In this document: positions 5,364 to 51,369 of the stretch, one piece after another
Position numbering within the stretch: position 1 is the stretch's first letter
Layout of the letters: every line of letters starts with the position of its first letter
Source: Candidatus Woesearchaeota archaeon
GTDB taxonomy: Archaea > Nanobdellota > Nanobdellia > Woesearchaeales > JAGVZT01
Reading direction: 5' to 3'
Length of the DNA: 64,000 nt
Assembly: GCA_043812815.1 (NCBI GenBank)
Contig: JBDRLT010000040.1
Location: 35,724-99,723, forward strand
The notes under the pieces: generated by a model
Databases searched by the model: none
Told to the model about the DNA's origin: nothing
The model's input: the letters and a program-made list of their open reading frames with translations, nothing else
Program-made: the position numbers and the translations under genes

Positions 5364-5584
5364 GATTGTACCTCATATCGGGTGAGATTGTACCTTTAAC
5401 GGGGTATATTGGTATTTAAACCTTTGTTTTTTCGGCTTGATAGGACTCCATAAGTTCTGCATCAATAAAAACACATTGTGAATTAAAGCAGAGCGGTTGT
5501 CTTGTTTAACTATGTGCTCAAAATCCACTAATCAAACCAAATACTTTTCCAGCAGTCCTCTTTTATTCTGTATTCTCATGCTTA

Positions 5585-6067
5585 TCAGCCGTTTTTCTTT
5601 AACTCTGCTTGGAATTCACTTCTGATTTCCTTAATCTTCTTCTCATTTAATTTGATAAGAATTGACTTACATTTAACTAAGAATTCAGGAGCTTTTGTAA
5701 TCATTTCATTATATTGCTCATCAGGAACAGTCCTATCAATATAATATTGAGAATCTATTCTTGCCTTTAACGAGTCCTCTGTAAAACCCAATTCTTCCTC
5801 TTTGAAATAATCTTTAAGGTATCTCTTTGCAAATTCTATAGTGCATGAATGGATTTCACATTTGATTCCGATTTTTGTCAAAATGGAATAAAGCGAGAAA
5901 TACAGGGTGTAATATGCAGTTGAAATCCTCCAATCTTTTATGATATTTACCCTCATTGATTCAAGAGCCTCTTCAGCTTTCTTAACATAAGCTTCTGCAA
6001 GATTGGAATTTGGTTCAATTAAGTTTAATCCTCCTTTCTTCCCAGCACACCATCTTATCTTATCCAT
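5585..6067 (-). CDS. HEPN-like protein (second module)
   Basis: 160-aa alpha-helical protein immediately downstream of and overlapping the NTase gene. Same architecture as 4289..4762. Confidence 0.5.
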   Translation of the reverse strand: MDKIRWCAGKKGGLNLIEPNSNLAEAYVKKAEEALESMRVNIIKDWRISTAYYTLYFSLYSILTKIGIKCEIHSCTIEFAKRYLKDYFKEEELGFTEDSLKARIDSQYYIDRTVPDEQYNEMITKAPEFLVKCKSILIKLNEKKIKEIRSEFQAELKKNG

Positions 6068-6650
6068 TATTTAGCACCTTTTGTATGAATTGCTCCACAT
6101 TAACAAAAACAATATGGTTTTTCAATATTTCTTTTAATAAAATATCTTTATTTATATTCTTTTCAAAAGTTTCCATAGGATAACACTTCACGCTTATAGC
6201 TATCCCTAAAATCCTTGAAACTTTTTTAATTTCTTCTCTATTATAATCGCCTGCTACAAAAATGTCTAAATCGGATTCTTTATTTTGTGTTCCTTTGGCA
6301 TAGCTTCCAAATATAATCCCTATGCCGTTGATATTTGGAGTTATCTTCTCTATAATCTCCTTTAGCATAAGATTGTTTTCTAAAAGTGAGATTGCCTTAT
6401 GTTGTTCAACAAAAACAAGATATTTTTTTGTAAATTCGCTTAATTTTATTTTATATGCTTTAATCTTACCTTTTGTCTTTGATTCAATAACTCCTTTATC
6501 TTCTAAACCTTCAAGAATAAGTTGTGCTGTTCTTGGACTTATTTTTAGTAATTTTCCAACTTCTCTGATATAATATTCTCTGTTAAAATCATTTGTAAAC
6601 AGAGAGAGGACTTGCAAAGTATTTTCCGTTATACTTAGTTTTTTATACAT
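6060..6650 (-). CDS. wHTH-fused minimal nucleotidyltransferase (second MntA-like copy)
   Basis: 'IIFGSYAKGTQNKESDLDIFV' NTase signature. N-terminal wHTH ('LKISPRTAQLILEGLEDKGVIE'). Overlaps the downstream HEPN-like ORF by 8 nt. Confidence 0.75.
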   Translation of the reverse strand: MYKKLSITENTLQVLSLFTNDFNREYYIREVGKLLKISPRTAQLILEGLEDKGVIESKTKGKIKAYKIKLSEFTKKYLVFVEQHKAISLLENNLMLKEIIEKITPNINGIGIIFGSYAKGTQNKESDLDIFVAGDYNREEIKKVSRILGIAISVKCYPMETFEKNINKDILLKEILKNHIVFVNVEQFIQKVLNNG

Positions 6651-6823: not shown

Positions 6824-7672
6824 ATGGATATTACTGGATGGGCGACTCAGGTCAGCAATTTAGATGCATTTAAGCCTTGGTTGCCTGTTATGGGCTTTTT
6901 TTTGGTGTTGATTATTCTGTGGGTTGGGATGTTATTGCTTATTCAACTTGTATTGTTTATTATTAGCTGTGTTAAGCACGACTTGTCTTTTAGTAATGCT
7001 GTTGATAAGTCAGTTGCAGGCTTTAAGAAGTATTATATTAAATTTTTTCACTACTATGTTCCTATTATCGTGATTACTTTGGTGTTGTCGTTTATAGCAA
7101 TAATGCTGCCGTTCTCAGGCACTTTTATGAAAATAGGCATGCTTGCCCTTTCCTTTGTTTTGGCAGTTATTCAAGGGACCTATTTCTTTGTTGTGGATAC
7201 TTCGCTTGCCAAGTCATATTATCTTAGCTTAAAAGGCAAGAAGTTTGTGTTTATGTGGATGAGTGGCTACCAGTTTGTGAAGCTGTTTGCTGTTGGGTTG
7301 ATATTGTTGGCTTTGTTTATACCTTCATTGCTATTATTGGGTATACCCTTTTTGTTTATTGGGTATATTATGCCTTTTGTGAGGTATCCAATTATTGTTG
7401 AGGATTTGGGTGTGATTGAGAGTATTCAGAAGGCTTTTGGGTTATTGAGAAAAAGATTCTGGGATATGGTGTTTTTCACTAGTATGTATGGGTTTTTGCT
7501 GTTTGCGGTTTATCTTGGGCTTGGGATGGTATTCGGATTGTTTGAGCTTATCCCGTATGTTGGGGCAATTTTCCAGGGAGTGCGGAGTATTATTACAATG
7601 GTGGTTGTGCAGCCTTTTGGGACGATATTGTTTACTGAGATGTTTTATGCAGTGGAGAAGTCAATCAGGTAG
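6824..7672 (+). CDS. Polytopic membrane protein of unknown function
   Basis: 282 aa with about 6-7 hydrophobic helices. No catalytic motif recognised. Confidence 0.6.
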   Translation: MDITGWATQVSNLDAFKPWLPVMGFFLVLIILWVGMLLLIQLVLFIISCVKHDLSFSNAVDKSVAGFKKYYIKFFHYYVPIIVITLVLSFIAIMLPFSGTFMKIGMLALSFVLAVIQGTYFFVVDTSLAKSYYLSLKGKKFVFMWMSGYQFVKLFAVGLILLALFIPSLLLLGIPFLFIGYIMPFVRYPIIVEDLGVIESIQKAFGLLRKRFWDMVFFTSMYGFLLFAVYLGLGMVFGLFELIPYVGAIFQGVRSIITMVVVQPFGTILFTEMFYAVEKSIR

Positions 7673-7749: not shown

Positions 7750-10700
7750 TTAACCCAAACCATCTGCGGCGCATGATAGTATATGCTTTTTGCAAATGCC
7801 ATTCTCACAAATTAGTTCAAAAAGCAGGGAACCAAGTAAGCTCCAGCATCCACAAAATCTTTTAGTAGGTTCAACATAGGTCACACTTCCCCGAGTAACT
7901 TCATTGCATTCATAAATAAATCTATTATCTTTTTGATCACAATATGGATTGTCCGGACAGCCAGGGGCATAGCACAATATTTTACCATCAAAAATCATAT
8001 AGCGATAATTGGATGGACATTTAGTACAATAGCCAGACATGTGTTTATTAAGCCCGCTACAACATGCATCAGTATCTGTAAATTCTTCACCTTCATCTAT
8101 ACATCCGAGGATAGAAGCAGTATTTTCTGGCCGACATTTGCAATCGCGGTTGCAATTTAATCCTTCAACACAAGAGTCGCCAACATAGTGCTTATTACAT
8201 AAAGGATCAACTTCAGATGAACAAAATTTATTACACTGATCAACGAACATATCACCGCTTTTTTCTTCAACGGAATATTGGGAACATTCTTTACATCTGT
8301 AATATACTTTTGAGATTGGTCCATCGCATAGTCTATAGCAACTGAACCCTTCAGTGCGAGATGGATCCTCGCTATCCATCTTGCACTCTTCAAGAACAAC
8401 TGGGTCCTTATCATCCCATAAATTGGTGTCACAAACCTCTCCGGAGTCAAGATATCCATTTCCGCATATATCACTTTCAACACATTCTCCTTGGTGATTC
8501 CAGATCTTATTACTATCTCCTGCATCACAGGGACGGCCGGGTATATGACCTGAAGCCATTTGTGTTTTACAAATATTAAATTTATTACACGGCGTATATA
8601 GATAATGTTTCTGATCCATAGATATACAGTCAGATTGTGTTTCTTGAGCGCAGCTGACCTCCTGTCCTGATGTTGTCACACAACAACCAATACTATCTTG
8701 GCTCTGAATACATGCTGCAAGCGTATTACATGGAACATCAGAAAAGTACTCTGGATTCTCCATAATACATTTACTTGATCTAATATTATCTGTACATACA
8801 CTACTAACTATGCAACACCCATATCTATCAGTATCATACAATTCTGGGCACTCGCTTAACCCATATGGTTCTTCTTTATCTCTGCATGAACCTGTAGTAA
8901 CTCTTGAAGCACGCTCAGATTTGCAGCATTTAATAGTTGAAACCTCATCACAAGGTCCATCCTTGATACCATCTTCACAACAGAATTTACCCTTATTACC
9001 ATCATATTCATCTTTGCCACAGATACACCCAGCCAAACCCTCTCCCCACTTGGTCTGATCAGCCTTTGTTAGAAGTGTGTTTTTTGGACATATTATCTTT
9101 CCCCTTGTGAGGTCTTCACTATTACAAACCCCCCCTTCTAAAGATATGAAACCAATTGAACTTGTAACCAATGGATGGCATAGATCCATCTGTCTCACTT
9201 CAGGACCTTTTTTTATTATTAGATCGATCAAAGCGCTGAGTTCCTTACCATCCCTCTCACCATCATCTGTACAGTCGCCATCACATCCACAAAGATAATT
9301 TATCCTGTGCTGGACTTTTATTCCTGAACCTTCTTCAGACTTGCATATTTCTGAGTTTGCTGCTTTTTGATTGAAGAATATGCCACTGCCCTTTATTTTC
9401 ATGGTTACTTTGGCATAAGCGCAACCGTCAAATTTTCCATCATTTTCTTTGTTTTCAACATAGACCCAGAGTTCATTCTCACCTGATTTTATCTTACCCT
9501 CAGTTATTTCATTGAAACCATCAACATTTTCCCACAGACTTTTAGTTGACCATGTAGCCATACTTTGTTTTTCTACTTCACTTGGATTGAATACAATACC
9601 CCTTGTTCCGTCACATGCTGGTTCATCGCCACCGCAGCTTCCGCAGGTATCTTCCCCACAATCCACAGAAACAGAAACATCAGCATTACCTTCCGCATCT
9701 GTTATTACAAGCCCATTATCTCCAGCAACGGTAAATTTAAGCATGCCCCACCCTCCTGCGCCTTTTGGACCTGAAGGATAACCATAGGTTGCATGCGGGG
9801 CAATTTCAACATGAAAATCAAAATTAGAGGGATTAATACCCCCGGCTGCATCTTTTTCCGCAGTGACTGTGACTCTACACCCTTTTATTTCATTGCCTTG
9901 TTCATCATGATCCATTATCTGGTCATTTATCCAGCCATTTGTTTGTAAATCCTCATATTGTTCATTGGTTAATCCCAATTCAGATTTTACCTTTTCAATA
10001 CACTTTTCATACAGTTCATCCAAGTTCACACTGCTACATGCACTAATTCTTCCTTCGGTAGGATTAGTATTATCAATCAACGGGTTATATTGATAATCTT
10101 CACATGCAACCTGGCTAGAATCTTTGAGTTGATCAAATTTCAGATAATCAATGGGTTTACCATTTGTTCCACATTCGCTATTTGGAATAGAACCTGTGAT
10201 AAGGCTAGGATTGGGCGTAATATCTCCAGCTGTCTCATAAGTATTTCCTCCAACTTCCACAGGCCTAACATGCCAGTCATATAAGCGAGAATCTTCTAAA
10301 ATAAACGCTGTTTCAAACAACCCAGGTTCAGATACTTCCCAGTTATCCTTTGGCATTTCTTGGCATGTCTTTAATGTTCCGCAGCTTTGGACAAATACAA
10401 GTTCAGTAAATGAATATTCTTCTACTGATTCGTCATCTTTCTTAACTGTCCTCACTCCCGTAGCTACCTTGGTGAAATGGCTTATTGTGCCTGTCAGAAT
10501 ATTGTTTTCAGTATCAACTGTTGTTGGGATGGATTTCCAGAAGCCTGCTGATTCATCAAAATAGGCAAGCACAAGATAAGGTTCATTCTCTGCTAATGGA
10601 GGAGGTACATCATTTTCATCATATCTAACCTTGATAGTAATTGGCGGGTCAAAAGTTGCGCCGTCTGGTTTGCCGTCATAAATAATGGTTCCAATAATAG

Positions 10701-11355
10701 GGGCATTGCTCATGCCCTGATTGTTTCTGTCAAGCATATTGAATTCAACATCATTAATAGGGTTGCCATCAGAATTGGTAATTCTTGTGCCGGCAGGGAT
10801 ATTGACCTCAGCATCAGCATCAGGCGTCCTTATTGTTTCTTCTTGGGTTGTACGGCCATTAGAATCTAGAGGCAGATTGGTGGCAGTTGAGGTTTTGATA
10901 TAATTGTTAAACTGGTTAAGTGCCTTAATCTCATCTCCTTTTTTCAGGCTAACTTTATAATCAAGATCAACAATAACTGCTGTTGGTTCGATTTTGACAT
11001 GAGGAATAGCAGTGCCTGCGGTTACTTGGAAACCTTGGTTTTCAAACTCCTGGAAGTTAATGCATTCAGGTAAGGTACTAGAAATATATGTTTCAAAGGT
11101 TAAGGGCAGGTTAGGATCCTCATAGCTTACTCCAAAGAGATCGATGGCCTCATAGGTTTTGGCATCCAGGCAGGTTGTGACATACTCCTTAAGTGCTGTG
11201 TTGGCTGATGCCAGTGTAATTTCTTTTTCAAATTTTGGCTGGAAGCTTTCTGCTGCCTTTTGTCTTGCCATGTAGCTGAATCCCCAGAATGCAGCAATTA
11301 TCACAAAGGCAATTATCAAGAACGGAACAATCTGGGCTTTTTTCAAGTTATTCAT
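7750..11355 (-). CDS. Giant secreted/surface protein with Cys-rich C-terminal region (adhesin-like)
   Basis: 1201 aa. N-terminal 'KKAQIVPFLIIAFVIIAAF' signal/anchor. The C-terminal ~450 aa is extremely Cys-rich (CxxC / CGxxC spacing), typical of extracellular disulfide-rich modules. Confidence 0.7.
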   Translation of the reverse strand: MNNLKKAQIVPFLIIAFVIIAAFWGFSYMARQKAAESFQPKFEKEITLASANTALKEYVTTCLDAKTYEAIDLFGVSYEDPNLPLTFETYISSTLPECINFQEFENQGFQVTAGTAIPHVKIEPTAVIVDLDYKVSLKKGDEIKALNQFNNYIKTSTATNLPLDSNGRTTQEETIRTPDADAEVNIPAGTRITNSDGNPINDVEFNMLDRNNQGMSNAPIIGTIIYDGKPDGATFDPPITIKVRYDENDVPPPLAENEPYLVLAYFDESAGFWKSIPTTVDTENNILTGTISHFTKVATGVRTVKKDDESVEEYSFTELVFVQSCGTLKTCQEMPKDNWEVSEPGLFETAFILEDSRLYDWHVRPVEVGGNTYETAGDITPNPSLITGSIPNSECGTNGKPIDYLKFDQLKDSSQVACEDYQYNPLIDNTNPTEGRISACSSVNLDELYEKCIEKVKSELGLTNEQYEDLQTNGWINDQIMDHDEQGNEIKGCRVTVTAEKDAAGGINPSNFDFHVEIAPHATYGYPSGPKGAGGWGMLKFTVAGDNGLVITDAEGNADVSVSVDCGEDTCGSCGGDEPACDGTRGIVFNPSEVEKQSMATWSTKSLWENVDGFNEITEGKIKSGENELWVYVENKENDGKFDGCAYAKVTMKIKGSGIFFNQKAANSEICKSEEGSGIKVQHRINYLCGCDGDCTDDGERDGKELSALIDLIIKKGPEVRQMDLCHPLVTSSIGFISLEGGVCNSEDLTRGKIICPKNTLLTKADQTKWGEGLAGCICGKDEYDGNKGKFCCEDGIKDGPCDEVSTIKCCKSERASRVTTGSCRDKEEPYGLSECPELYDTDRYGCCIVSSVCTDNIRSSKCIMENPEYFSDVPCNTLAACIQSQDSIGCCVTTSGQEVSCAQETQSDCISMDQKHYLYTPCNKFNICKTQMASGHIPGRPCDAGDSNKIWNHQGECVESDICGNGYLDSGEVCDTNLWDDKDPVVLEECKMDSEDPSRTEGFSCYRLCDGPISKVYYRCKECSQYSVEEKSGDMFVDQCNKFCSSEVDPLCNKHYVGDSCVEGLNCNRDCKCRPENTASILGCIDEGEEFTDTDACCSGLNKHMSGYCTKCPSNYRYMIFDGKILCYAPGCPDNPYCDQKDNRFIYECNEVTRGSVTYVEPTKRFCGCWSLLGSLLFELICENGICKKHILSCAADGLG

Positions 11356-39669: not shown

Positions 39670-40449
39670 ATGGAATGGGAGATAACTGAAGTAGGTAAAG
39701 TGCCTAAGTTGAATGGTGCTGTGCTGATTTCAGGACTGCCTGGAATTGGTAATGTTGGGAAAGTGGCAGTTGACTTTCTCATTGACGAGTTGAAAGCTAA
39801 GAAGGTTTACACATTTTTCTCATATTCCTTTCCGCATTCTGTTTTTGTGAATGAGGAAAACCTTGTTGATCTGCCATCTATTGAGTTGTATTATGCAACT
39901 GGCAAATATCCTTTATTGCTATTGGCAGGAGATATCCAGCCAACAGATGAGATTTCGAGCTATGAGTTTTCTGATGAAGTGCTAAGATTGGCAAAAAAGC
40001 TGGGTGCTGCAGAGGTTATCACTCTTGGAGGGATAGGGTTGCCCACAGTACCCAAAGAGCCCAAGATTTACTGCACAGGGAATAGCAAGAAGATGGTTGA
40101 CAAGTATAAGGACGGAGCTACAACTGGTCTTTTTGGGGTGGTAGGGCCGATAATTGGTGTTTCTGGACTTTTGCTAGGATTGGCTAAGAGGCAGGATTTG
40201 CCTGCTGTGTCTTTCCTCGCAGAGACTTATGGTCATCCTATGTATATTGGTGTGAGGGGTGCTAAGGAGATCCTTGAGTTGCTAAACAAGAAGCTTGGGT
40301 TAAAACTAGATTTGGCCAAGATGGAACGTGAAATAGAAGATATGGAAGGCAAGATAAGTAAGGGGAGCAAGAAGCTTAAGGATATTGCACGCCAGTCTGC
40401 CCTGCAGAAGATGAAGAAGTTTGGTTCTGAGACAAGTTATATTGGTTAG
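39670..40449 (+). CDS. Proteasome assembly chaperone PAC2-family protein (PbaA/PbaB-like)
   Basis: 'AVLISGLPGIGNVGKVAVDFLI' matches the PAC2 N-terminal motif. 259 aa with a charged C-terminal tail. Confidence 0.65.
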   Translation: MEWEITEVGKVPKLNGAVLISGLPGIGNVGKVAVDFLIDELKAKKVYTFFSYSFPHSVFVNEENLVDLPSIELYYATGKYPLLLLAGDIQPTDEISSYEFSDEVLRLAKKLGAAEVITLGGIGLPTVPKEPKIYCTGNSKKMVDKYKDGATTGLFGVVGPIIGVSGLLLGLAKRQDLPAVSFLAETYGHPMYIGVRGAKEILELLNKKLGLKLDLAKMEREIEDMEGKISKGSKKLKDIARQSALQKMKKFGSETSYIG

Positions 40450-40910: not shown

Positions 40911-40938
40911 GATATATATATTCTTTTTATCTAGTTAT

Positions 40939-43900
40939 TTGAAAAAGATGGTGAAGGCGCAGTTTTCTTTTGAATACTTGGTAATTTCAACTTTCGCGCT
41001 AGTTAGTGTTGGCGCTTTTGTTTTTGCCATCTATGCCCAGATTAGCAGAAAAACAGCTGAGTTTGATGCAGTGCAGCTTGATCGGTTCGGCAATTCAATT
41101 ATTGACACTGCAAATCAGCTGAGTTATGCTGGTGGCCCTTCTAAGCTTACAAAAGAGGCTGTGCTCCCGAGTAATGTTGTGGATGTTTTTGTTGCTCACA
41201 ACAATTATCTCATTTTCGCGTATTTGGGAGGGGGTATTTTGAATGACAGGGTGTACCACTCCAGAACAAATATTGCGATTGATATGGAAGAGACCAGCGA
41301 GGGACTGAAGACATTGGTTATTGAGTCGCTGGGGAATTATATCTCAATATGCTCGAAGACTGCTGCCTGGCGCTGCAACCAGTTTTGTGAAATCAGCCTG
41401 GGCGAGAGTGCTGACGCAGCGCCTGCTGACTGCTGCAAGCCGGATTGCTCTGGGTGTAACACAAGCCAGGCAGATGGTGATTACAGATTCTGCGGTTCTG
41501 ACGGGCTAAACCACACCTCCTGTCACGGGCACCATGGGTGTGATCTCTCAGGTGAGTTTTGTGTTAATGAGGATTTGGATGGTTATGGGCTGAATAGCAG
41601 TATATTCTGCCCTTATTTGGGAGAAGATTGTGATGATGACACCTCTGATGATCCGGCAGGATGCCCAGAAACTAAGGAGGGCTGTGATACTGCAGAAGAA
41701 GCTCAGTGTGCTATCTGCATACATCCTGGTGCTTTTGAGAATGATATTCCGAAATGCTCTGACTGGATTGATAATGACTGTGATGGTGATGTTGACTGCG
41801 ATGATTCGGACTGCGGCTGCCTTTCAATAATTGATAGCTTTGATAGTGCTGAAAATGTAAGCTCTGCTCCTAATCTGGTTGTGAACACCACTCTGGGAAT
41901 GGTTTTGTTGGAAGGGTATAATGGCACACAAACTGTTTTCAATGATTCAGCACAGATAAACATGACTTTCCTTAGCAATGGTTCTGAGATTATTGGATGG
42001 ATCAGATTGCCTACCTGGGCGAATGTGATTAACTCTTCTGTGGAGCTTGAGGGGATCGGATTGCCTGCAATGTCTCCTTTTGTATACTCATGGGATGGAA
42101 GCAATTTTGTTTTTGAAAGTGATTTCTTTTTGGGAAGGGATAGCAGTATTAAGGAAGGCTGGAGTTATGTTGAGCTTAAACATATAAGTGAACCGATTTT
42201 AAGGATTACTAATGAATTGGATGAGATAGATTATATTGACAGCCTGAAATTGATTGCATTTACTCAGACAGAATCTTTTGCTCTTGAAGTGGTGAATCTC
42301 TCCCCTGGGTGCGTTTTGGATGTTAGTGAAGATGATGCCAGGTATTTGATATTGCAGAAAGGTGATGAGGTTTATGTTGAGTTTGAAGCATTACCTGCTG
42401 GAACAACTCGGGTTGAGCTGGCTGCAAATGGGTTTTTTGTTAGGTTGAAACCAAGCATTGTCAAGGTTGGTAACAATATTGAGGTAAATTCTGGCAGCAA
42501 TAAGGTTATTTTTGAACCATATATTAAAGTTAATCATGTCATACTACCACTTGAGGAGTATACTGAATTTGTTAATTATGAAGTTGTTGAAAATAATGCT
42601 GAGCATGGGACAAAATTCGGTGTCAAATTTTATTTTTTGGAGAATACTGATGAAATAGATAGTATTATTCTAAATGTTGTAGAGAATGTTGGAAATTTGA
42701 GGGCTGAGCAAGATATCCTCCACTTTGGAGATTCCCTAATAGATTTTGGTGATATTCGCGAATCTGGCTTTGAGTTGGGGGTTGCTAATGAGGGCATTGT
42801 TATTGGAAACTTAAATGAATTTCTTATTAATAATACACTATGGATAGATCCTACTGTTAACCTGACACCTTATATGGATACCACAATCTGCAGATGGGAT
42901 AATTGCGGTAGCAATCCATGTTGGCAAACAGCATTAATCGCTATGAATTGGGGTTCTGATTACAATAAGGCCTTGTTGATATGGGATTTGTCAAGTATAC
43001 CAGCAGATTCACAAATAATCATTGCAAGGCTATACTTTTTGGCCAGTGCATGGCATGGTGGTACTTTACCACACCCTGAAATTGCAGCATATCGAATACT
43101 GGAAGAATGGGATTGCCAGACTGCCACAAATTGGTACAGAATGACTGGGGTTGGTTGGTCTAATATGGGGTGTGATGCGCCGGACTCCCGTGCTGTGACT
43201 GAGGATGATTCTGTTGTTATTGTAAATGTTTACATATGGTATAATCTAAATATTCTGCCGAGTACAATCTGCTGGGTATCAGGAAGTTGCAGTAATTATG
43301 GAGTAGTACTGGTAAATATTGCAGATCCAACCAGCCTTCATATGCCGTCAAGAGAATCAAGTGGAGGAAAGCCATATCTATTCTTGAGTTATAAGTTAGC
43401 AAATGGCCATGCGTGTTCATTAAATGATGATTGCATTTCCGGTAATTGTGCTGCAGACTATGATGGCAATGGTAAATTCTGCGCTCCTGTTAACAATTGT
43501 GTGCACTCTGACATTGCTACATGTAATCCTGTGTGCTATGGTTATACAAGCGGAAGCAATTATTGTACACAACAAGGTAGTGGTCAGACTCCAGGATCCT
43601 ATGTAAGCTGCACCAATGCTGTTTGGGGTCCAATAACAAGCTGCGGATATACCAACTGGAACCAATGTAGTGACGAGGGCTCGCCCAATAATTGCCTGAA
43701 AGGCAGAGATGTACGGACGTGCTTAAGTGGTGCATGTAATGATATTACTGGTGAAAAGAACTGGTCAGTTCTAGGGATAGGGAATGTATGTTCTGGAGCG
43801 GGCAATGAGATTGTTGGGAGTTGTACCAACCGCTGTGGGTATTCTGACTGGAATGTTTGCTCAGTCTCTGGGTGTCAGAAAATCAGAGATTGCTTGGCAT

Positions 43901-45000
43901 GTACTAATCTAAACACCTGCGGTGTGGATGTGGGTAATAGCGCTGAAAACTGTCCTGCTGATACTGCTTGCTCAACAATATTGGGGTATGCTAGTTGCAA
44001 CTCTTCCTACACCTGCAACGCTTCATGGGCCTGCTCTATTGCGTCGGGTAATGATAATTATAATATTGGTGATCCTTGGAACAACAGATGCCAGGCAAAA
44101 TGTGATGGTTCAAATAACTGTGATTATGCCTCTAACTGTGCTCTAGCAGCTGGGACTCCAGCGCAATGCTTCTGCTCAGCTGATATTTGGCAGGTATGCA
44201 CTCAGACCACACTTGTTTGTTGGGAGACTCTCTGTACAAGCGCAAATCCCAATCAATGTGAGAATAGCACTATGGCTCCGCAGAATTATTCAGCGTGCAC
44301 TGGAACAACAGGATGTACAGCTACTGGACCAACTGTAAAAATATGTGGTTGTGACGGCTTGGGCAATTGTGTTGACACTTGCGATGATGATATTTGCCAG
44401 CCATGGGAGAATGTAGAAACTTGCAGGGCAGATTGTATGTACTGGCCTGTCAATGTTAGTGTAAACTTTGGGGATACTGGTGCGGATGACAGTTATTGGC
44501 CGGGTGAGCTGAATGAGACCAACTCACCGTTAACAATTAGCCTGAACAACAGTAAATTGACGAATATTTTAAATGGCTGCAATTGTCCTGGGTGCTATGT
44601 GGCGGGGTGGTGTGTTCTGCCGATAAGGGTGAGCACAGACCATAATGGGACTGTAAAACTTGATGATGTCAGCATTGATTACGCGGATTATGAATTGCAG
44701 GGGGTGTTAGAATCAACAAATCTGCTTTTAGGGAAAACGGTTGGTTTAATAATCTCTTTTTCCTATGACTGCACGCTGGAGCCGCCTTACGAACTCTGGG
44801 TGCAATTCTCAAATGACGATGATTACTGGTATGATGCTGATGGAGTGCTAGACAGCTCAACAAGAATGCAGGATGGTAAGCATCTTATACCCCTAACAGA
44901 TTTTGACTGGAGAGATAATTACTTTAAATATAGAATCAATTTTGTTTCAGATGGATTGTATACACCAAAATTAAAAGAGATAGAAATAAAATATCTCTAA
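40939..45000 (+). CDS. Giant (1353 aa) Cys-rich surface protein with pilin-like class III signal peptide (putative adhesin)
   Basis: N-terminus 'MKKMVKAQFSFEYLVISTFALVSVGAFVFAIYAQ' matches the archaeal type IV pilin-like (DUF361-type) prepilin pattern K[GA]|QxSxE[FY]+hydrophobic. 'DNDCDGDVDCDDSDC' metal-binding-type Cys repeat. The C-terminal ~400 aa is very Cys-rich. Confidence 0.7.
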   Translation: MKKMVKAQFSFEYLVISTFALVSVGAFVFAIYAQISRKTAEFDAVQLDRFGNSIIDTANQLSYAGGPSKLTKEAVLPSNVVDVFVAHNNYLIFAYLGGGILNDRVYHSRTNIAIDMEETSEGLKTLVIESLGNYISICSKTAAWRCNQFCEISLGESADAAPADCCKPDCSGCNTSQADGDYRFCGSDGLNHTSCHGHHGCDLSGEFCVNEDLDGYGLNSSIFCPYLGEDCDDDTSDDPAGCPETKEGCDTAEEAQCAICIHPGAFENDIPKCSDWIDNDCDGDVDCDDSDCGCLSIIDSFDSAENVSSAPNLVVNTTLGMVLLEGYNGTQTVFNDSAQINMTFLSNGSEIIGWIRLPTWANVINSSVELEGIGLPAMSPFVYSWDGSNFVFESDFFLGRDSSIKEGWSYVELKHISEPILRITNELDEIDYIDSLKLIAFTQTESFALEVVNLSPGCVLDVSEDDARYLILQKGDEVYVEFEALPAGTTRVELAANGFFVRLKPSIVKVGNNIEVNSGSNKVIFEPYIKVNHVILPLEEYTEFVNYEVVENNAEHGTKFGVKFYFLENTDEIDSIILNVVENVGNLRAEQDILHFGDSLIDFGDIRESGFELGVANEGIVIGNLNEFLINNTLWIDPTVNLTPYMDTTICRWDNCGSNPCWQTALIAMNWGSDYNKALLIWDLSSIPADSQIIIARLYFLASAWHGGTLPHPEIAAYRILEEWDCQTATNWYRMTGVGWSNMGCDAPDSRAVTEDDSVVIVNVYIWYNLNILPSTICWVSGSCSNYGVVLVNIADPTSLHMPSRESSGGKPYLFLSYKLANGHACSLNDDCISGNCAADYDGNGKFCAPVNNCVHSDIATCNPVCYGYTSGSNYCTQQGSGQTPGSYVSCTNAVWGPITSCGYTNWNQCSDEGSPNNCLKGRDVRTCLSGACNDITGEKNWSVLGIGNVCSGAGNEIVGSCTNRCGYSDWNVCSVSGCQKIRDCLACTNLNTCGVDVGNSAENCPADTACSTILGYASCNSSYTCNASWACSIASGNDNYNIGDPWNNRCQAKCDGSNNCDYASNCALAAGTPAQCFCSADIWQVCTQTTLVCWETLCTSANPNQCENSTMAPQNYSACTGTTGCTATGPTVKICGCDGLGNCVDTCDDDICQPWENVETCRADCMYWPVNVSVNFGDTGADDSYWPGELNETNSPLTISLNNSKLTNILNGCNCPGCYVAGWCVLPIRVSTDHNGTVKLDDVSIDYADYELQGVLESTNLLLGKTVGLIISFSYDCTLEPPYELWVQFSNDDDYWYDADGVLDSSTRMQDGKHLIPLTDFDWRDNYFKYRINFVSDGLYTPKLKEIEIKYL

Positions 45001-45001
45001 A

Positions 45002-47173
45002 TCACTCTTCTATTTTGAGGCCTTTTCTCTCCCTGATCTGCTTTACTACCTTTTGCTGCAGCTCGTCAGGCAGTTTCTCAAAGCTTTGATCCACAAGATA
45101 GTAGTTGCCTCTTCCTGAGGTTGCTGATCTAAGTTCAGAAGCCAGTCCAAACATCTCTGCAACAGGCAGCTTTGCTTTTATTGAGACTCTCTGTTCATCT
45201 TGGTTCATTTCAAGCAGCTGACCTCTCTTGCTTGAGATGAGTTTGGTAATATCGCCCATGTTTTCAGAGGGTGCATCAAATTGCAGGACCTGCCTCGGCT
45301 CCAAGATGAGCGGCCGGGAATTCATCATTGCACCACGGATACCTTCTCTGACTGCTGGCCAGAGTTGTGCCGGGCCTCTGTGGATGGTGTCCTCATGCAG
45401 TTTACAGTCGGTTAGCAAAACCTTGATGTTTACGCATGGTTCCCGCGTAATAGGGCCAGCCCCCATAACATCTTCAAACATATCCATTACCATTTCTATG
45501 ATCTCACCAATGTGCACGATTCCCCTGGTTTCATCAATTAGGATGTTGCCCTTGTAAACATCCTTCACTTTTCTTGCGATTTTTGAATCATAGCCAAGTT
45601 CGATGAACTTTTTCTCTATTTTCTCGTCTCTCTTTTTGATCCTGCCTTCTGCAATCTCTCCATTTTTGAATGCGTTGCGCACATTCTCTTCCATCGGCTC
45701 AACTAAAAAATACAGTTTGTTGTGCTTGTTTGGGGATTTGCCTTCAAAGTCGCCTAAGGTCCTAGTGGTGATTGTTTCTCTGTAAACAACAATTGGCGGA
45801 GATGTTTTTACCTGTAATCCCTTCTCGGTTATTATCCTGTTTTCAATGATTTCAAGATGGAGCTCGCCCATGCCATGGATCAGATTTTCTCCTGTTTCCT
45901 GGTTGATCTCAACCTGGATGCTCGGATCTTCCTTCTGGACTGTCTGGAGAATCTCGACCAGTCTGGGGAGATCACTTGTTTTCATTGCTTCAATTGACTT
46001 TGTTACTACCGGCTCAAATAGGTGCTTGAGCGATTCAAAAGGAGTCATATCTGCTGAATCTGTGACTGTTTCTCCTGCTGATATTCCTTTCATGCCCACT
46101 ATCCCGATAATATTACCTGACGGAACTCTTTCGACTTGCTCACGTTTCGGTCCGTTATATACGGAGACTTGCTGAAGACGGTATGTTCTATCCAACGCGA
46201 TCATAGTGAGATCCTGGCCATTGACAATTGTTCCGGAGAAAAGCCTCCCTGCAGCAACTTCTCCAGCGTATTTGTCCATCACGATTTTTGTGCATACAAA
46301 TGCCACTGGCCCATTAGGGTTGCAGCTGAGGAGTGATTTACCTGCTTCTGACTCAATATCCCCTCTCCACACTTTTTCAATTCGGTAACTCTGGGCTGTC
46401 TTTGGATTGGGATGGTGTTTGACCACCATATCAAGAACTACAAGATGTAGGGGTGCTTTTTCAGCGAGCTCTTTGTATGTCTCCTTTTCATATGCCTCGA
46501 TAACATCTTTGAATGAGAGACCTTTTCTCTTCATATAAATTGCAGAGAGTGCCCAGTTGTGAATGGCTGAGCCAAAGCCAACACTCCCTTCGTTGACATT
46601 GACCTTCCATTTCTCTTTGTATTGTGGTTCTGCAAAAGCCTCAATAAGCTTATTAACATTGGTTATTATTTTGACAAACCTGTTCTGCATTGCCTCGGGA
46701 GTGAGCTTGATCTCTTTTATCAAACGATCAACTTTGTTGATAAAGAGGATCGGCCTGACTCTCTCACGCATGCATTGCCTGATCACTGTTTCGGTTTGGG
46801 GCATAACACCCTCAACTGCGTCAACAAGCAGAATGGCTCCGTCAACTGCCCTCATTGCCCTGGTGACTTCGCCGCTGAAGTCAATGTGGCCTGGAGTGTC
46901 TAACAAATTGATAAGATACTCTTTCCCCTCGAGGGTGTGCACCATTGAGACTGCTCCTGTGTCGATAGTGATACCTCTTTCGTGCTCATCTTCATGGAAA
47001 TCCAGCACACGCAGCTGGCCTGCCAGCTCTTTGCTAATCATGCCTGCTCCTGAGAAGAGGTTGTCTGAGAATGTGGTTTTGCCATGATCAATATGGGCAA
47101 CTGTGCCAATATTCCTGATATTCTCTACCTGAGTCATCAGGCGTGTAATTTTTTCAATCATTTTTTCTGCCAT
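45002..47173 (-). CDS. fusA: Translation elongation factor 2 (aEF-2)
   Basis: G1 'AHIDHGKTT', G3 'DTPGHIDF', G4 'NKVDR'. Diphthamide-site 'HEDTIHRGPAQ'. Start placed at 'MAEKMIEK' (the longer ORF extends into the dcd gene). Confidence 0.9.
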   Translation of the reverse strand: MAEKMIEKITRLMTQVENIRNIGTVAHIDHGKTTFSDNLFSGAGMISKELAGQLRVLDFHEDEHERGITIDTGAVSMVHTLEGKEYLINLLDTPGHIDFSGEVTRAMRAVDGAILLVDAVEGVMPQTETVIRQCMRERVRPILFINKVDRLIKEIKLTPEAMQNRFVKIITNVNKLIEAFAEPQYKEKWKVNVNEGSVGFGSAIHNWALSAIYMKRKGLSFKDVIEAYEKETYKELAEKAPLHLVVLDMVVKHHPNPKTAQSYRIEKVWRGDIESEAGKSLLSCNPNGPVAFVCTKIVMDKYAGEVAAGRLFSGTIVNGQDLTMIALDRTYRLQQVSVYNGPKREQVERVPSGNIIGIVGMKGISAGETVTDSADMTPFESLKHLFEPVVTKSIEAMKTSDLPRLVEILQTVQKEDPSIQVEINQETGENLIHGMGELHLEIIENRIITEKGLQVKTSPPIVVYRETITTRTLGDFEGKSPNKHNKLYFLVEPMEENVRNAFKNGEIAEGRIKKRDEKIEKKFIELGYDSKIARKVKDVYKGNILIDETRGIVHIGEIIEMVMDMFEDVMGAGPITREPCVNIKVLLTDCKLHEDTIHRGPAQLWPAVREGIRGAMMNSRPLILEPRQVLQFDAPSENMGDITKLISSKRGQLLEMNQDEQRVSIKAKLPVAEMFGLASELRSATSGRGNYYLVDQSFEKLPDELQQKVVKQIRERKGLKIEE

Positions 47174-47181
47174 GTTATCAC

Positions 47182-47727
47182 CTAAATTTGTTTTTCTTTG
47201 TGTCCATCTGTTGAGACACGGCCACCTTGCCATTGTCCTCTGTAGGCTGAATGAATCTCTCCTTCCACTTTATGGAAAAAGATATTGATATAGCGTGCCC
47301 CAAGTTCGATTGTCATGGGACAGTTGGAAACATTGTGCAAAAGAGGGTGCAGTTGTCCTGAATAGCCCGGATCAATAACACCTGCTCTAAGTACAACTCC
47401 TGACCTGAAGAGGGTTGAGCGTGGTTTGATAATCCCAAACATGGTGAACGGAAGATTGATCTTCTCAATGCTTTCTGTGAGGAGATATTCCCCTGGGTTG
47501 AGTATTACACTCTTTTTTTGCTTGGGATCATAGGCGGCGATCAGTTTGGTTTGCGGTGTTTTGCGTTCTGTTTCACCTAGGAAACTCTCTCCTTTAAGCT
47601 TAAAGACCTTACCAATCCTGAGGTCAAAGCCTGTGCCTTCAGGATTCTGGAGTTCGCGCTCGCACAGATTCTCGATTAGGTTTTGCTCTTTGACCAATCT
47701 TAGCAGCTCCTTTGTCCCGATTACCAT
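47182..47727 (-). CDS. dcd: dCTP deaminase (dUTPase superfamily)
   Basis: 181 aa. 'RAGVIDPGYSGQL' dUTPase-fold motif and Dcd-like N-terminus. Confidence 0.75.
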   Translation of the reverse strand: MVIGTKELLRLVKEQNLIENLCERELQNPEGTGFDLRIGKVFKLKGESFLGETERKTPQTKLIAAYDPKQKKSVILNPGEYLLTESIEKINLPFTMFGIIKPRSTLFRSGVVLRAGVIDPGYSGQLHPLLHNVSNCPMTIELGARYINIFFHKVEGEIHSAYRGQWQGGRVSTDGHKEKQI

Positions 47728-49845: not shown

Positions 49846-51369
49846 CTATCCAAAGATGCGCTTAAAGAAGCTGACAAGGCCATCAACAAACGCTTTGAGG
49901 ATGTTAGGTTTCTGCTGCGGTGGTTCAGCTGGTGTCGTGACAGTGGTGTTCGGAACTTGCTTGGCCACAGGGATTTCTTGAGGCGTGGCAGTTGGTTGAA
50001 TGTGCTTCTTGACTGTTAGGGAGGCTGTTGCTTTGGATTCAAGGAATTGATAGTACTGCGTACGGTATTTGCAGTTAAAGTCGATTTGGAATTTTGTGTC
50101 CTTGTCTGCAGATGGTGCCCTGAAGAGAATCTGGCTGAATTTGTAGGTTTTTTCAGGGTTGATCGCCGGAACTTCAAAAGCGAGTTTGCCAAAAAGTCCA
50201 CTTGTGAGGGTGCAGCTTACATTGAAAAAGGGGTTGTCTTTGTCTTGGTTGGTGATAGATGGCCGCACAGAGTAAGACTGATTGTATGATAGACTTGTTG
50301 CGTTGAGCTCAACAGCTGGATTGACTTTGCCTATTTTGATTTCAAGTGCGTCCTTAAGCGTTAGCACATGCCTGAGGTATGCGTCCTGGTACTCATTGTA
50401 TGAATTACTTGCGGTTTCTGTGGTAAGGTTATACTTGCCAGAATTGGCGATTCTAAAACTGAAGGAAAATGTTTTGATTTCATTTTGCATAACAGAACCG
50501 CTCCAGGTGATGAGGTTACCTGTTTTTTCAAGAGGAGATTGAGCTGATACCACTGTTAAGGCTTTGGGAATAAGGATTTTGATCTGATCCACTACTGCCT
50601 CGCGGCTGCCTGTGTTTTCAATGGTCAGTTGATATGTGATTTTGTCTCCCAGTTTGGGAGCTGCTGGTGAAATCTTGGTTGTGGATTTGAGGGGGTTTGG
50701 TGGACTCACAACCTTGATTTTCAGCTCGTTGGATTTTTTCGAGGTCACCTGTGATTCATATTCATAACCTAGCTGAGCTTGAATGGTTGTGTTTATTGGC
50801 TTGACCAGTTTAATAGTATATGTGAAAGTTGAAATGTCTGTAATGCTGGGTTTTTCCCACACAACTGAGTTTAATTTTTTGGTGACAGTGGTGTCAACAA
50901 GTTCGAATTGTGGTGGCAGCAAGCTCGCATATACCACTTGGTGTATTCTATTCTGCCCTTTGTTTTCAACGGTCACTGTTATTTTTGCAGTCTCACCCAG
51001 TTGCATCTGTGTTTTGTCCGCTGCAATAGTGAGTGTTACCTGGGGCGTCAGTGGTGCGATTGTCAGGTGTATCTCAGGGATGCTTGTTTCTGTCTCAACA
51101 ATGTGGATGCCCTGATGAGCGCTGAGGTTGAAACGGCTTTCTGGATAACAGATCCTGTAGTAGGGTGAGGCTTCGCATTCGGTTTTGCCTATCATATAAA
51201 AGTGAGAATCCTGGTCAACTGTGAGAATATCCCAGCGCTGATTTACTTTTGTAATGAAGGTCTGCCCGTCAAAGCTGATATTGGTGCCGGCAAGAATCCA
51301 CTTGTCATAATTCTCAGCCTGCACAGCTGCGATCATAATTACTGTGAGCATAATGATTATGGGGCGCAT
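49846..51369 (-). CDS. Secreted/surface beta-rich protein (DUF11-like repeats), hypothetical
   Basis: Signal peptide 'MRPIIIMLTVIMIAAVQA'. Ser/Thr-rich beta-strand repeats. C-terminal 'TPAEPPQQKP' linker and a short hydrophobic tail. Confidence 0.5.
   Translation of the reverse strand: MRPIIIMLTVIMIAAVQAENYDKWILAGTNISFDGQTFITKVNQRWDILTVDQDSHFYMIGKTECEASPYYRICYPESRFNLSAHQGIHIVETETSIPEIHLTIAPLTPQVTLTIAADKTQMQLGETAKITVTVENKGQNRIHQVVYASLLPPQFELVDTTVTKKLNSVVWEKPSITDISTFTYTIKLVKPINTTIQAQLGYEYESQVTSKKSNELKIKVVSPPNPLKSTTKISPAAPKLGDKITYQLTIENTGSREAVVDQIKILIPKALTVVSAQSPLEKTGNLITWSGSVMQNEIKTFSFSFRIANSGKYNLTTETASNSYNEYQDAYLRHVLTLKDALEIKIGKVNPAVELNATSLSYNQSYSVRPSITNQDKDNPFFNVSCTLTSGLFGKLAFEVPAINPEKTYKFSQILFRAPSADKDTKFQIDFNCKYRTQYYQFLESKATASLTVKKHIQPTATPQEIPVAKQVPNTTVTTPAEPPQQKPNILKAFVDGLVSFFKRIFG

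What the first reader, a model, noticed from the sequence alone, without database searches (positions are those of the whole stretch)
40939..45000. 1353-aa Cys-rich protein with archaeal pilin-like (class III) signal peptide: a giant pilin-like adhesin
The N-terminus 'MKKMVKA|QFSFEYLVISTFALVSVGAFVFAIYAQ' matches the archaeal prepilin (DUF361-type) cleavage pattern (K-[GA]|Q-x-S-x-E-[FY] followed by a hydrophobic helix), as seen for example in Methanococcus EpdE substrates 'KG|QISMEF'. Normally that motif belongs to ~15-kDa pilins, but here it heads a 150-kDa protein. The protein contains 'DNDCDGDVDCDDSDC' metal-binding-type Cys repeats and a ~400-aa C-terminal region with dozens of Cys. A surface-anchored or pilus-tip adhesin is one possibility. 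In a putative small-genome, host-dependent archaeon it would be a prime candidate for host attachment.
Basis: partly seen in the sequence, partly recalled or inferred. Interest (0 to 1): 0.65.

Follow-up and report, generated by a model that had tools for sequence, protein, structure and literature searches.

The report
Giant modular pilin-like adhesin, Woesearchaeota
A 1350-residue cysteine-rich surface protein of a Woesearchaeota (DPANN) archaeon starts with a complete small archaeal pilin module and sits exactly where related genomes encode a ~200-residue pilin, so it is most likely a pilin that gained a very large sugar-binding, adhesin-type extension, which is a new example of a known design (modular pilins), not a new kind of system.

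Summary
One ORF (ATG 40948 to stop 45000, + strand, 1350 aa, 81 Cys) begins MVKA|QFSFEY followed by the protein's only hydrophobic helix.

- **Pilin module.** Residues 1-145 match 212 cluster representatives in a full HMMER scan. Among the best 149 the median length is 146 aa, and 141 carry Q(+1)/E(+5). Thirty-two of the 150 sequences scanned reach Pfam PF04021 (class III signal peptide).
- **Independent profile.** An HMM built from 93 distant members scores the target at 101 bits.
- **Machinery link.** The best-scoring ~140-aa relative heads an operon with a T2SSE ATPase and two T2SSF platform genes.
- **Fold.** AlphaFold gives a confident helix (3-61) plus sheet (65-137).
- **Position.** The gene lies between PAC2 (then a NUDIX gene) and aEF-2. 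Four other loci, two of them named Woesearchaeota, carry a 198-424-aa "pilin plus 12-Cys knot" gene at that position.

The target is therefore a positional ortholog with roughly 1150 extra residues. The extension holds a MopE-like acidic disulfide motif, a DNRLRE/CBM96-type carbohydrate-binding domain (aa 670-811), a 46-Cys region and two regions with no detectable relatives.

A role as a surface- or pilus-presented adhesin is inferred, not shown. No pilus machinery lies in the window, and the rest of the genome could not be reached. This is a new member of the modular-pilin kind, of moderate interest.

The parts
40913..40924 (+). A/T-rich TATA-like run about 30 nt upstream of ATG 40948. Putative archaeal promoter giving a near-leaderless mRNA.
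   Evidence: Read directly from the sequence. Function is inferred from the usual archaeal TATA-to-start spacing and was not tested.
40948..45000 (+). Full coding sequence, 1350 aa plus stop. NCBI MFH1399513.1, named 'DNRLRE domain-containing protein'.
40948..40959 (+). Predicted class III leader MVKA (aa 1-4), with cleavage predicted after Ala4.
   Evidence: Aligned with leaders such as MVKKA|Q, MKKG|Q and MKA|Q in homologs; median leader length is 6 aa. Cleavage itself was not tested.
40960..41046 (+). Mature N-terminus QFSFEY plus hydrophobic alpha-1 helix (aa 5-33). This is the only hydrophobic segment of the protein.
   Evidence: Hydropathy scan. Q5 and E9 are invariant or nearly so in the family. 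Helix 3-61 has pLDDT 84-94.
41047..41349 (+). Pilin head: rest of helix alpha-1 and a 7-strand beta-sheet (aa 34-134).
   Evidence: phmmer hits align end to end with ~140-aa proteins. Family HMM gives 101 bits over HMM positions 2-137 of 138. AlphaFold pLDDT is 73-94 by 10-residue block.
41350..41562 (+). 12-Cys 'knot' module (aa 135-205) shared with the ~200-aa sub-family. Invariant residues: C135, C143, C147, E153, P159, D161, C162, C163, C167, C170, C192, H195, C198, C205.
   Evidence: Alignment A2. No Pfam or NCBIfam match, and a low-confidence AlphaFold model.
41563..41823 (+). Acidic Cys-rich MopE-like segment (aa 206-292), including CSDWIDNDCDGDVDCDDSDCG.
   Evidence: BLASTP against P0004 gives E = 2e-9, and P0004 hits PF11617. 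NCBIfam acid_disulf_rpt scores 19.6 bits, E = 5.6e-4, below its cut-off of 41.
41824..42924 (+). Region with no detectable relatives (aa 293-659). Seven N-x-S/T sequons lie in aa 303-362.
   Evidence: No hit. Sequon positions. The AlphaFold model is unusable.
42955..43380 (+). DNRLRE / CBM96-type domain (aa 670-811).
   Evidence: NF033679 scores 37.2 bits on the whole protein and 41.8 bits on the segment, against a cut-off of 34. Weak Pfam hits: Disaggr_repeat E = 0.035 and CBM96 E = 0.059.
43414..44436 (+). Second Cys-rich region (aa 823-1163) with 46 Cys. The motif CGYxxWxxCS occurs twice.
44437..44997 (+). C-terminal region with no detectable relatives (aa 1164-1350). It has no hydrophobic C-terminal anchor.
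39670..40449 (+). PAC2 proteasome-assembly chaperone gene, the upstream synteny marker.
   Evidence: The same neighbour is seen in L006, L007, L008 and L009.
45002..47233 (-). aEF-2 gene, convergent with the target; the downstream synteny marker.
   Evidence: The same neighbour is seen in L005, L006, L008, L009 and L012.

Best explanation
The gene encodes a modular type IV pilin-like protein.

**Shown**
- Residues 1-137 are a complete archaeal pilin module: a short basic leader, Gln at +1, Glu at +5, a hydrophobic alpha-1 helix and a beta-sheet head.
- This module is homologous to ~140-aa proteins. The best-scoring ~140-aa relative heads a type-IV-filament operon with an ATPase and two platform genes.
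- The gene is the positional ortholog of a ~200-aa "pilin plus 12-Cys knot" gene, which other genomes (those named are Woesearchaeota) keep between PAC2 and aEF-2.
- About 1150 residues have been added at the C-terminus. They hold Cys-rich segments and one DNRLRE/CBM96-type domain.

**Inferred**
- The precursor inserts into the membrane by its N-terminal helix.
- A prepilin (class III) peptidase removes MVKA.
- The helix then either keeps the protein at the cell surface or is taken up by an Epd-like ("system 1") pilus machinery. In the pilus, a subunit this bulky would most likely sit at the tip, as proposed for bacterial modular pilins.
- The disulfide-rich segments act as a rigid stalk. The CBM96-like domain and the two unmatched beta-rich regions bind glycans or other ligands on a surface or partner cell.
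For: **Pilin module**
- phmmer of aa 1-145 against 1.84 billion cluster representatives found 212 hits at E <= 1e-3. These aligned from residue 1-5 to about 135 of proteins with a median length of 146 aa.
- 141 of 149 homologs have Q(+1)/E(+5). Q5, E9, P74 and G119 are invariant in alignment A4.
- 32 of the 150 sequences scanned reach PF04021.
- An HMM built from 93 distant members scores the target at 101 bits, E = 1e-30.
- AlphaFold gives helix 3-61 plus seven strands at 65-137, with block-mean pLDDT 83-94 for residues 11-130.

**Link to pilus machinery**
- P0016 (140 aa) heads an operon in L010. It holds three small pilin-like genes, a 924-aa protein with a hydrophobic N-terminus and a DLSGSM motif of the kind seen in vWA domains, a T2SSE ATPase and two T2SSF genes.
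- A 2026 preprint defines "system 1" by its two platform genes and reports it in methanogens, Thermococcales and DPANN.

**Orthology**
- The gene order PAC2, pilin, aEF-2(-), DCD, ADK, NDK is shared with L008 (198 aa). L006 (204 aa) has the same order without DCD, and L005 (424 aa) shares the downstream side.
- L012 (199 aa) shows the gene convergent with aEF-2.
- The shared 12-Cys module is shown.

**Extension**
- The DNRLRE domain scores above the NCBIfam cut-off.
- The published CBM96 module, an alginate-binding beta-sandwich, is ~30% identical to DNRLRE-domain members (PMC9971899).
- The MopE-like motif is supported.
- The N-terminal helix is the only hydrophobic segment.

**Precedent**
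- Bacterial modular pilins such as PilB are proposed to be tip-located adhesins (PMC8179133).
- Large putative adhesins have been noted in archaeal type IV pilus loci (PMC4858521).
Against: - The target itself does not reach PF04021, even as an isolated N-terminal fragment at E <= 10.
- No prepilin peptidase, T2SSE ATPase or T2SSF platform gene lies in the 64-kb window. None was seen in the flanks of the orthologs either.
- About 550 residues of the extension have no detectable homolog, and the AlphaFold model of aa 296-1350 is unusable (mean pLDDT 30.6).
- Only one domain supports ligand binding, and its specificity is unknown.
Confidence: 0.62

Rival explanations
1. It is a membrane-anchored surface protein only. 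The pilin-type N-terminus is processed, or not, and then serves simply as an N-terminal membrane anchor. The 1300-residue ectodomain acts as a cell-surface adhesin or envelope component and never enters a filament.
For: - The gene is not in a pilus operon. It sits in a housekeeping synteny block in all five loci examined.
- The N-terminal helix is the sole hydrophobic segment.
- A 150-kDa subunit is hard to fit into a filament body.
- Archaeal class III signal peptides also occur on non-filament proteins such as substrate-binding proteins.
Against: - Glu at +5 and the whole pilin head are conserved, as expected if filament contacts are still under selection.
- Pilin genes encoded away from the ATPase locus and used in trans are well known (PMC4858521).
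- Large pilin-like proteins do occur inside filament operons.
Confidence: 0.28
2. It is a polysaccharide-capture or polysaccharide-processing protein (bindosome-like or disaggregatase-like) used for nutrient scavenging or matrix remodelling, not for attachment to a host cell.
For: - The DNRLRE/CBM96-type domain occurs in disaggregatase, S-layer proteins and polysaccharide lyases.
- Class III signal peptides are used on archaeal substrate-binding proteins.
Against: - No catalytic domain and no solute-binding domain was detected, either in the whole protein or in segments.
- No transporter genes are adjacent.
Confidence: 0.12
3. The N-terminus is an ordinary Sec signal anchor and the resemblance to a class III signal is coincidental.
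For: PF04021 is not reached by the target itself. Fold searches do not return pilins.
Against: - End-to-end homology of aa 1-137 to a family with conserved Q(+1)/E(+5), PF04021 hits and a pilus-operon context.
Confidence: 0.03
4. The giant ORF is an assembly or gene-fusion artefact that joins a ~200-aa pilin gene to unrelated sequence.
For: - GC3 drops from 0.49 in the pilin-plus-knot part to 0.33-0.38 in the extension.
- The protein is a singleton cluster.
Against: - A 4053-nt uninterrupted frame has syntenic genes immediately on both sides. The stop codon is one base from the end of the aEF-2 gene.
- Synonymous codon usage of the extension correlates with the rest of the window (r = 0.84-0.85).
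- Intermediate-length relatives P0003 (424 aa) and P0004 (483 aa) extend the same module, and P0004 shares the next segment.
- Other relatives reach 720-1203 aa.
Confidence: 0.03

Closest known systems
Archaeal class III signal peptide / DUF361-type pilins (Pfam PF04021), for example the Epd pilins of Methanococcus maripaludis and the 'system 1' filament loci
   Same: - Short basic leader ending in K-A, Gln at +1, Ser at +3, Glu at +5, an aromatic residue at +6, a hydrophobic helix and a small beta head.
- Homologs reach PF04021.
- One homolog lies in an operon with an ATPase and two platform genes, which matches the published system 1 description.
   Different: - The target is about nine times longer than the family median (1350 against 146 aa).
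- It does not itself reach the PF04021 threshold.
- It is encoded in a housekeeping block, not in a pilus operon.
- Its head is followed by a conserved 12-Cys module found only in its own sub-family.
Bacterial modular type IV pilins (Streptococcus sanguinis PilB and PilC, ETEC CofB)
   Same: A small N-terminal pilin module is joined to bulky C-terminal functional modules. In bacteria these modules bind proteins or carbohydrates and are proposed to be displayed at the pilus tip (PMC8179133).
   Different: - The target is archaeal and has a different pilin family and leader type.
- It has many modules instead of one. At 1350 aa it is longer than the most extreme case singled out in that bacterial survey (860 aa).
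- There is no experimental evidence for it.
Large PilY1-like / DUF2341 putative adhesins in archaeal type IV pilus loci (Makarova et al. 2016)
   Same: These are large secreted proteins proposed to be pilus-associated adhesins. One relative of the target, P0113 (1203 aa), carries TIG and DUF2341 domains behind the same pilin module.
   Different: The target has no DUF2341 domain and is not encoded in a pilus locus. Its own N-terminus is a full pilin module, so it is not an accessory protein.
DNRLRE / CBM96 domain proteins (Methanosarcina disaggregatase repeats; the alginate-binding CBM96 of an alginate lyase)
   Same: One domain (aa 670-811) scores above the NF033679 cut-off. It also matches Pfam CBM96 and Disaggr_repeat weakly.
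   Different: The target has a single copy, no associated catalytic domain, and an unknown ligand.
[quoted passage not shown]
   Same: A class III signal peptide is placed on a large non-filament-forming functional protein.
   Different: The target has no solute-binding domain and no adjacent ABC transporter. It has a full pilin head, not just the signal peptide.

Membership tests
Archaeal class III signal peptide pilin-like proteins (PF04021 / DUF361 type) | Short charged leader ending in [KR]-[GA], then Q-x-S-x-E-[FY] | tested here: met
   The target reads MVKA|QFSFEY. The same pattern holds in 120 of 149 homologs by a strict regex, and Q(+1)/E(+5) in 141 of 149.
Archaeal class III signal peptide pilin-like proteins (PF04021 / DUF361 type) | Hydrophobic alpha-helix of about 20 residues directly after the cleavage site | tested here: met
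   Kyte-Doolittle 19-residue windows starting at aa 6-15 average above 1.6, and this is the only such segment. AlphaFold gives helix 3-61; pLDDT block means are 69 for residues 1-10 and 84-94 for 11-60.
Archaeal class III signal peptide pilin-like proteins (PF04021 / DUF361 type) | Match to the Pfam PF04021 model | tested here: inconclusive
   The target gets no hit at E <= 10, either whole or as N-terminal fragments. 32 of the 150 sequences scanned (149 homologs plus the target) hit at E <= 0.01, best 3.8e-5. The model is very short.
Archaeal class III signal peptide pilin-like proteins (PF04021 / DUF361 type) | Homology of the globular head to small stand-alone pilins | tested here: met
   212 hits with a median length of 146 aa. 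An independent family HMM gives 101 bits.
Archaeal class III signal peptide pilin-like proteins (PF04021 / DUF361 type) | Cleavage by a class III (prepilin) peptidase | not testable with these tools
   This needs biochemistry or N-terminal proteomics.
Type IV filament system (Epd-like / system 1) | A T2SSE-family ATPase, T2SSF platform protein(s) and an A24 peptidase encoded in the same genome | tested here: inconclusive
   None lies in the 64-kb window. The remaining ~66 kb of the contig and the rest of the MAG were not retrievable. A family member sits next to T2SSE plus two T2SSF genes in L010.
Modular type IV pilins | N-terminal pilin module followed by one or more non-pilin modules in a single polypeptide | tested here: met
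   Pilin module at aa 1-137, followed by the Cys knot, a MopE-like segment, a DNRLRE domain and further regions.
Modular type IV pilins | Incorporation into a filament, with the extra module mediating binding | not testable with these tools
   This needs microscopy and binding assays.
DNRLRE / CBM96 domain | Score above the curated cut-off of NF033679 | tested here: met
   37.2 bits on the whole protein and 41.8 bits on the segment, against a cut-off of 34.
DNRLRE / CBM96 domain | Score above the Pfam cut-offs of CBM96 (PF24517) or Disaggr_repeat (PF06848) | tested here: not met
   13.6 bits against a cut-off of 26, and 14.2 bits against 33.9. These hits agree with NF033679 in kind but are below threshold.
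Solved pilin folds (PDB) | Structural match of the N-terminal model to a solved archaeal or bacterial pilin | tested here: not met

The most novel reading that the evidence does not exclude
The PAC2-to-aEF-2 locus of Woesearchaeota holds a vertically inherited pilin whose C-terminus gains modules in a lineage-specific way: 198, 199, 204, 424 and 1350 aa at the same position. On this reading the 1350-aa form, larger than the 860-aa most extreme case singled out in the bacterial modular-pilin survey read here, is a pilus-tip adhesin whose CBM96-like and unmatched domains set which partner cell this DPANN archaeon attaches to.
Probability: 0.25. Interest if true: 0.65.

Novelty: new member of a known kind. 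Interest (0 to 1): 0.42.

Why it matters
How DPANN archaea recognise and hold on to other cells is largely unknown, and Woesearchaeota have no cultured representative that I know of. This protein gives a concrete, testable candidate:

- a processing site (after Ala4);
- a defined carbohydrate-binding-type domain (aa 670-811) that could be expressed and screened;
- a conserved locus (PAC2, pilin, aEF-2) at which gene length varies seven-fold between lineages, which lets module gain be compared across metagenomes.

It also carries the modular-pilin idea, surveyed so far in bacteria, over to an uncharacterised archaeal pilin sub-family whose members are all annotated as hypothetical.

Tried and rejected
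**Searches that found nothing**
- Word-indexed homolog searches with the full protein, aa 1-145 and aa 300-821 returned only the protein itself or nothing.
- phmmer of the whole protein against PDB sequences gave nothing.
- Both genome-contig scans were empty, one with the sub-family alignment and one with the L010 ATPase. An earlier attempt failed because the alignment was too divergent.
- Exact-protein look-ups showed this MAG is not in the contig index, so the window could not be extended to look for a peptidase or ATPase.
- The afdb50 fold library was unavailable.
- Self-BLAST found no internal repeats.

**Models and searches that were uninformative**
- AlphaFold of aa 296-1350 without an alignment gave mean pLDDT 30.6, so no fold search was run on it.
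- The family profile against PDB returned nothing significant.

**Ideas rejected**
- The second giant protein, P0002, is not a paralogue. BLASTP shows no similarity, and the family HMM does not hit it.
- The 8-TM protein at 6824-7672 shows no sign of being a prepilin peptidase. It has no Pfam or NCBIfam hit, and I saw no GxGD-type motif in its translation.
- The recount is 120 strict, 141 with Q(+1)/E(+5), and 6 truncated gene calls.

Full report
**1. Observation**

The ORF is real. It runs from 40939 (TTG) or 40948 (ATG) to 45000 on the + strand. The NCBI protein record MFH1399513.1 is the 1350-aa ATG form, named 'MAG: DNRLRE domain-containing protein [Candidatus Woesearchaeota archaeon]', on a 129,882-bp contig.

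An A/T-rich TATA-like run at 40913-40924 lies about 30 nt upstream of the ATG. By the usual archaeal promoter spacing this suggests a near-leaderless transcript and favours the ATG. This is my inference. Both starts give the same predicted mature end.

The protein has 81 Cys (6.0%) and 22 N-x-S/T sequons, seven of them within aa 303-362. A single hydrophobic segment lies at aa ~6-33, and there is no C-terminal anchor. Neighbouring genes are archaeal housekeeping genes: eIF2-alpha, PAC2, NUDIX, aEF-2, dCTP deaminase, adenylate kinase and NDK.

**2. The N-terminus is a complete pilin module, not just a motif**

Word-indexed searches failed. An exhaustive phmmer scan of aa 1-145 against 1.84 billion cluster representatives found 212 proteins at E <= 1e-3.

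Among the best 149 homologs:
- the median length is 146 aa, and 106 are 125-170 aa;
- only 12 are 300 aa or longer, and 3 are 700 aa or longer (720, 878 and 1203 aa);
- 120 match [KRSNTL][GAS]Q.[STA].E[FYALMIV] strictly;
- 141 have Q(+1)...E(+5);
- six more are gene calls truncated to start at E(+5);
- the median leader is 6 residues.

Alignments run from query residue 1-5 to about 135, so the whole small protein matches the target's N-terminus. Q5 and E9 are at least 90% conserved across 150 sequences. Together with P74 and G119 they are invariant in a 56-sequence alignment.

Thirty-two of the 150 sequences scanned (the 149 homologs plus the target) reach Pfam PF04021 'Class III signal peptide', best E = 3.8e-5. 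The target does not, either whole or as a fragment.

As an independent test I built an HMM from 93 family members, leaving out the target and its nine closest relatives. I searched it against all 449 stop-to-stop ORFs of the window. Only the target matched, at 101 bits and E = 1e-30, covering HMM positions 2-137 of 138.

AlphaFold with a 10-sequence alignment gave a helix at 3-61 and seven strands at 65-137. Block-mean pLDDT was 83-94 for residues 11-130. This is the general helix-plus-sheet layout of type IV pilins.

**3. The family belongs to type IV filament systems**

The best-scoring ~140-aa homolog, P0016 (140 aa), heads an operon in locus L010. In order, the operon holds:
- three small proteins with K/R-[AGS]-Q-type N-termini;
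- a 924-aa protein with a hydrophobic N-terminus and a DLSGSM motif of the kind seen in vWA domains;
- a 319-aa protein;
- a T2SSE ATPase;
- two T2SSF platform genes.

A 2026 preprint defines archaeal 'system 1' (Epd-like) by two platform genes. [quoted passage not shown] Makarova et al. 2016 note stand-alone pilin genes used in trans, and large putative adhesins in such loci (PMC4858521).

**4. Positional orthology: the main new result**

Nine relatives (P0003-P0010 and P0012; 198-483 aa, seven of them 198-228 aa) align with target residues 1-205. They share a ~60-residue module after the pilin head. Its invariant residues are C135, C143, C147, E153, P159, D161, C162, C163, C167, C170, C192, H195, C198 and C205. 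Members that carry a source name are Candidatus Woesearchaeota. Other large relatives are named Woesearchaeota or Nanoarchaeia, and all are annotated 'hypothetical protein'.

Their genomic contexts reproduce the window's gene order. The table lists the gene found at the target's position.

| Locus | Source | Gene at the target's position | Shared neighbours |
|---|---|---|---|
| L006 / L007 | GCA_964444505.1 | 204 aa | S27e, eIF2-alpha, Nop10, PRTase, PAC2 upstream; aEF-2(-), ADK, NDK, L24e, S28e, L7Ae downstream |
| L008 / L009 | GCA_018263355.1, Woesearchaeota | 198 aa | PAC2 upstream; aEF-2(-), DCD, ADK, NDK, L24e, S28e, L7Ae downstream |
| L012 | metagenome | 199 aa | convergent with aEF-2 |
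| L005 / L011 | Woesearchaeota RBG_13_36_6 | 424 aa | aEF-2 (71% identical to the window's), DCD, ADK, NDK, L24e, S28e downstream |
| Window | this MAG | 1350 aa (target) | eIF2-alpha, PAC2, NUDIX upstream; aEF-2(-), DCD, ADK, NDK downstream |

aEF-2 identity to the window is 64-72%, and the most similar locus (L012) has the short form. The target is therefore the ortholog of a ~200-aa pilin-like gene that gained about 1150 residues in its own lineage.

P0004 (483 aa) shares the next segment too (BLASTP E = 2e-9 over the acidic Cys motif). This suggests modules were added stepwise.

An assembly artefact is unlikely. The frame is uninterrupted, both flanks are syntenic, and synonymous codon use of the extension correlates with the window (r = 0.84-0.85). 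GC3 is lower in the extension, at 0.33-0.38 against 0.49 in the N-terminal part.

**5. The extension**

| Residues | Content | Evidence |
|---|---|---|
| 206-292 | Acidic Cys-rich segment including CSDWIDNDCDGDVDCDDSDCG | Aligns to the corresponding stretch of P0004, a protein that hits Pfam MopE. Matches NCBIfam 'acidic double-disulfide repeat' at 19.6 bits, below its cut-off. |
| 293-659 | Sequon-rich, no detectable homolog | |
| 670-811 | DNRLRE domain | 37.2 / 41.8 bits against a cut-off of 34. Weak Pfam CBM96 and Disaggr_repeat hits. |
| 823-1163 | 46 Cys, two CGYxxWxxCS motifs | |
| 1164-1350 | No detectable homolog | |

The published CBM96 module, an alginate-binding beta-sandwich, is ~30% identical to DNRLRE-domain members. 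The same paper reports the DNRLRE domain in disaggregatase, S-layer proteins and polysaccharide lyases (PMC9971899).

AlphaFold without an alignment failed on aa 296-1350 (pLDDT 30.6).

Other large relatives carry different cargo behind the same pilin module:
- TIG plus DUF2341 (P0113, 1203 aa);
- MopE-type Cys repeats (P0088, P0136, P0032);
- repeats that look dockerin-like, with EF-hand Pfam hits in the family (P0031).

So the family behaves like the bacterial 'modular pilins' described for S. sanguinis PilB. There, a functional module is grafted onto a pilin and is proposed to sit at the pilus tip. The most extreme case singled out in that bacterial survey was 860 aa (PMC8179133).

**6. Mechanism**

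*Shown:* a pilin module with a class III-type N-terminus; a family link to filament operons; positional orthology with a small pilin; and a carbohydrate-binding-type domain in the extension.

*Inferred:*
- cleavage after Ala4 by a class III peptidase;
- retention at the surface by helix alpha-1, or uptake into an Epd-like filament, most plausibly at the tip given the bulk;
- the disulfide-rich segments acting as a stalk;
- ligand or glycan binding by the CBM96-like and unmatched domains.

Attachment to a host cell is a reasonable guess for a DPANN archaeon, but nothing here tests it.

**7. What could not be settled**

No A24 peptidase, T2SSE or T2SSF gene lies in the window. All of the window's proteins with several predicted membrane helices were scanned. 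They are an MFS transporter, a Na/Ca exchanger, an ABC-2 permease and a Yip1-domain protein, plus one unassigned 8-TM protein. The two mechanosensitive channels (MscS, MscL) were scanned as well.

The rest of the genome was unreachable.

**8. Verdict**

The class III and pilin part is supported strongly. The adhesin part is supported by analogy plus one domain.

The protein is a new and unusually large archaeal member of the known modular-pilin design, from an uncharacterised Woesearchaeota sub-family. Interest is moderate. Its main value is as a defined candidate for cell-surface recognition in an uncultured DPANN lineage, and as a locus where module gain on a conserved pilin can be followed.

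Noticed in passing
window 7750-11355 (- strand): A second giant Cys-rich protein (P0002, 1201 aa, 72 Cys, NCBI MFH1399479.1 'hypothetical'). Its N-terminus, MNNLKKA|QIVPFLIIAFVIIAAFWGF, also looks like a class III signal (K-A-Q plus a hydrophobic helix). It is not related to the target, is not hit by the pilin-family HMM, and has no Pfam or NCBIfam match.
   Followed up: partly
window 40948-45000 and 7750-11355: Both giant surface-protein genes have low third-position GC: 0.33-0.38 in the target's extension and 0.30 in P0002. The other genes of 180 aa or more average 0.446, and the target's own pilin-plus-knot part is 0.49. This could reflect relaxed codon selection or more recent acquisition of these regions.
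   Followed up: no
window 41350-41562 (aa 135-205): A conserved ~60-residue module follows the pilin head in the sub-family. It has 10 invariant Cys, one invariant His and PxDCC and GHNGC-type motifs. It matches no database family and gives no confident model, so it could be a disulfide knot or a metal site.
   Followed up: partly
window 49846-51369 (- strand): A 507-aa protein with an ordinary-looking N-terminal signal peptide and DUF11 / CARDB repeats, likely another cell-surface protein.
   Followed up: no
window 1-64000: ARAGORN finds no tRNA gene in the whole 64 kb. This may be chance, or it may reflect intron-containing or split archaeal tRNAs that the tool missed as run here.
   Followed up: no
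L010 8010-10784: Inside a filament operon with a T2SSE ATPase and two T2SSF genes sits a 924-aa protein. It has a hydrophobic N-terminus (KKNKKAMFFTIDALIASLVLV) and a DLSGSM motif of the kind seen in vWA domains. It looks like another large modular pilin-like protein in archaea.
   Followed up: no
L006 1-7166 and 18378-20615: In the genome with the 204-aa ortholog, two giant genes lie just upstream of the syntenic block: one of 1956 aa, and one of 1392 aa that runs off the locus, with Peptidase_C1 and weak or faint PKD / Big_9 hits. A Cas1/Cas2/Cas4/Cas3 locus lies downstream.
   Followed up: no
window 6824-7672 (+ strand): A 282-aa protein with eight predicted TM helices and no Pfam or NCBIfam match, transcribed divergently from the giant P0002 gene.
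   Followed up: partly
window 4289-6650 (- strand): Two adjacent, slightly overlapping pairs of small genes (157 + 207 aa and 160 + 196 aa), laid out like toxin-antitoxin or nucleotidyltransferase/HEPN pairs. They were not scanned against any family library.
   Followed up: no
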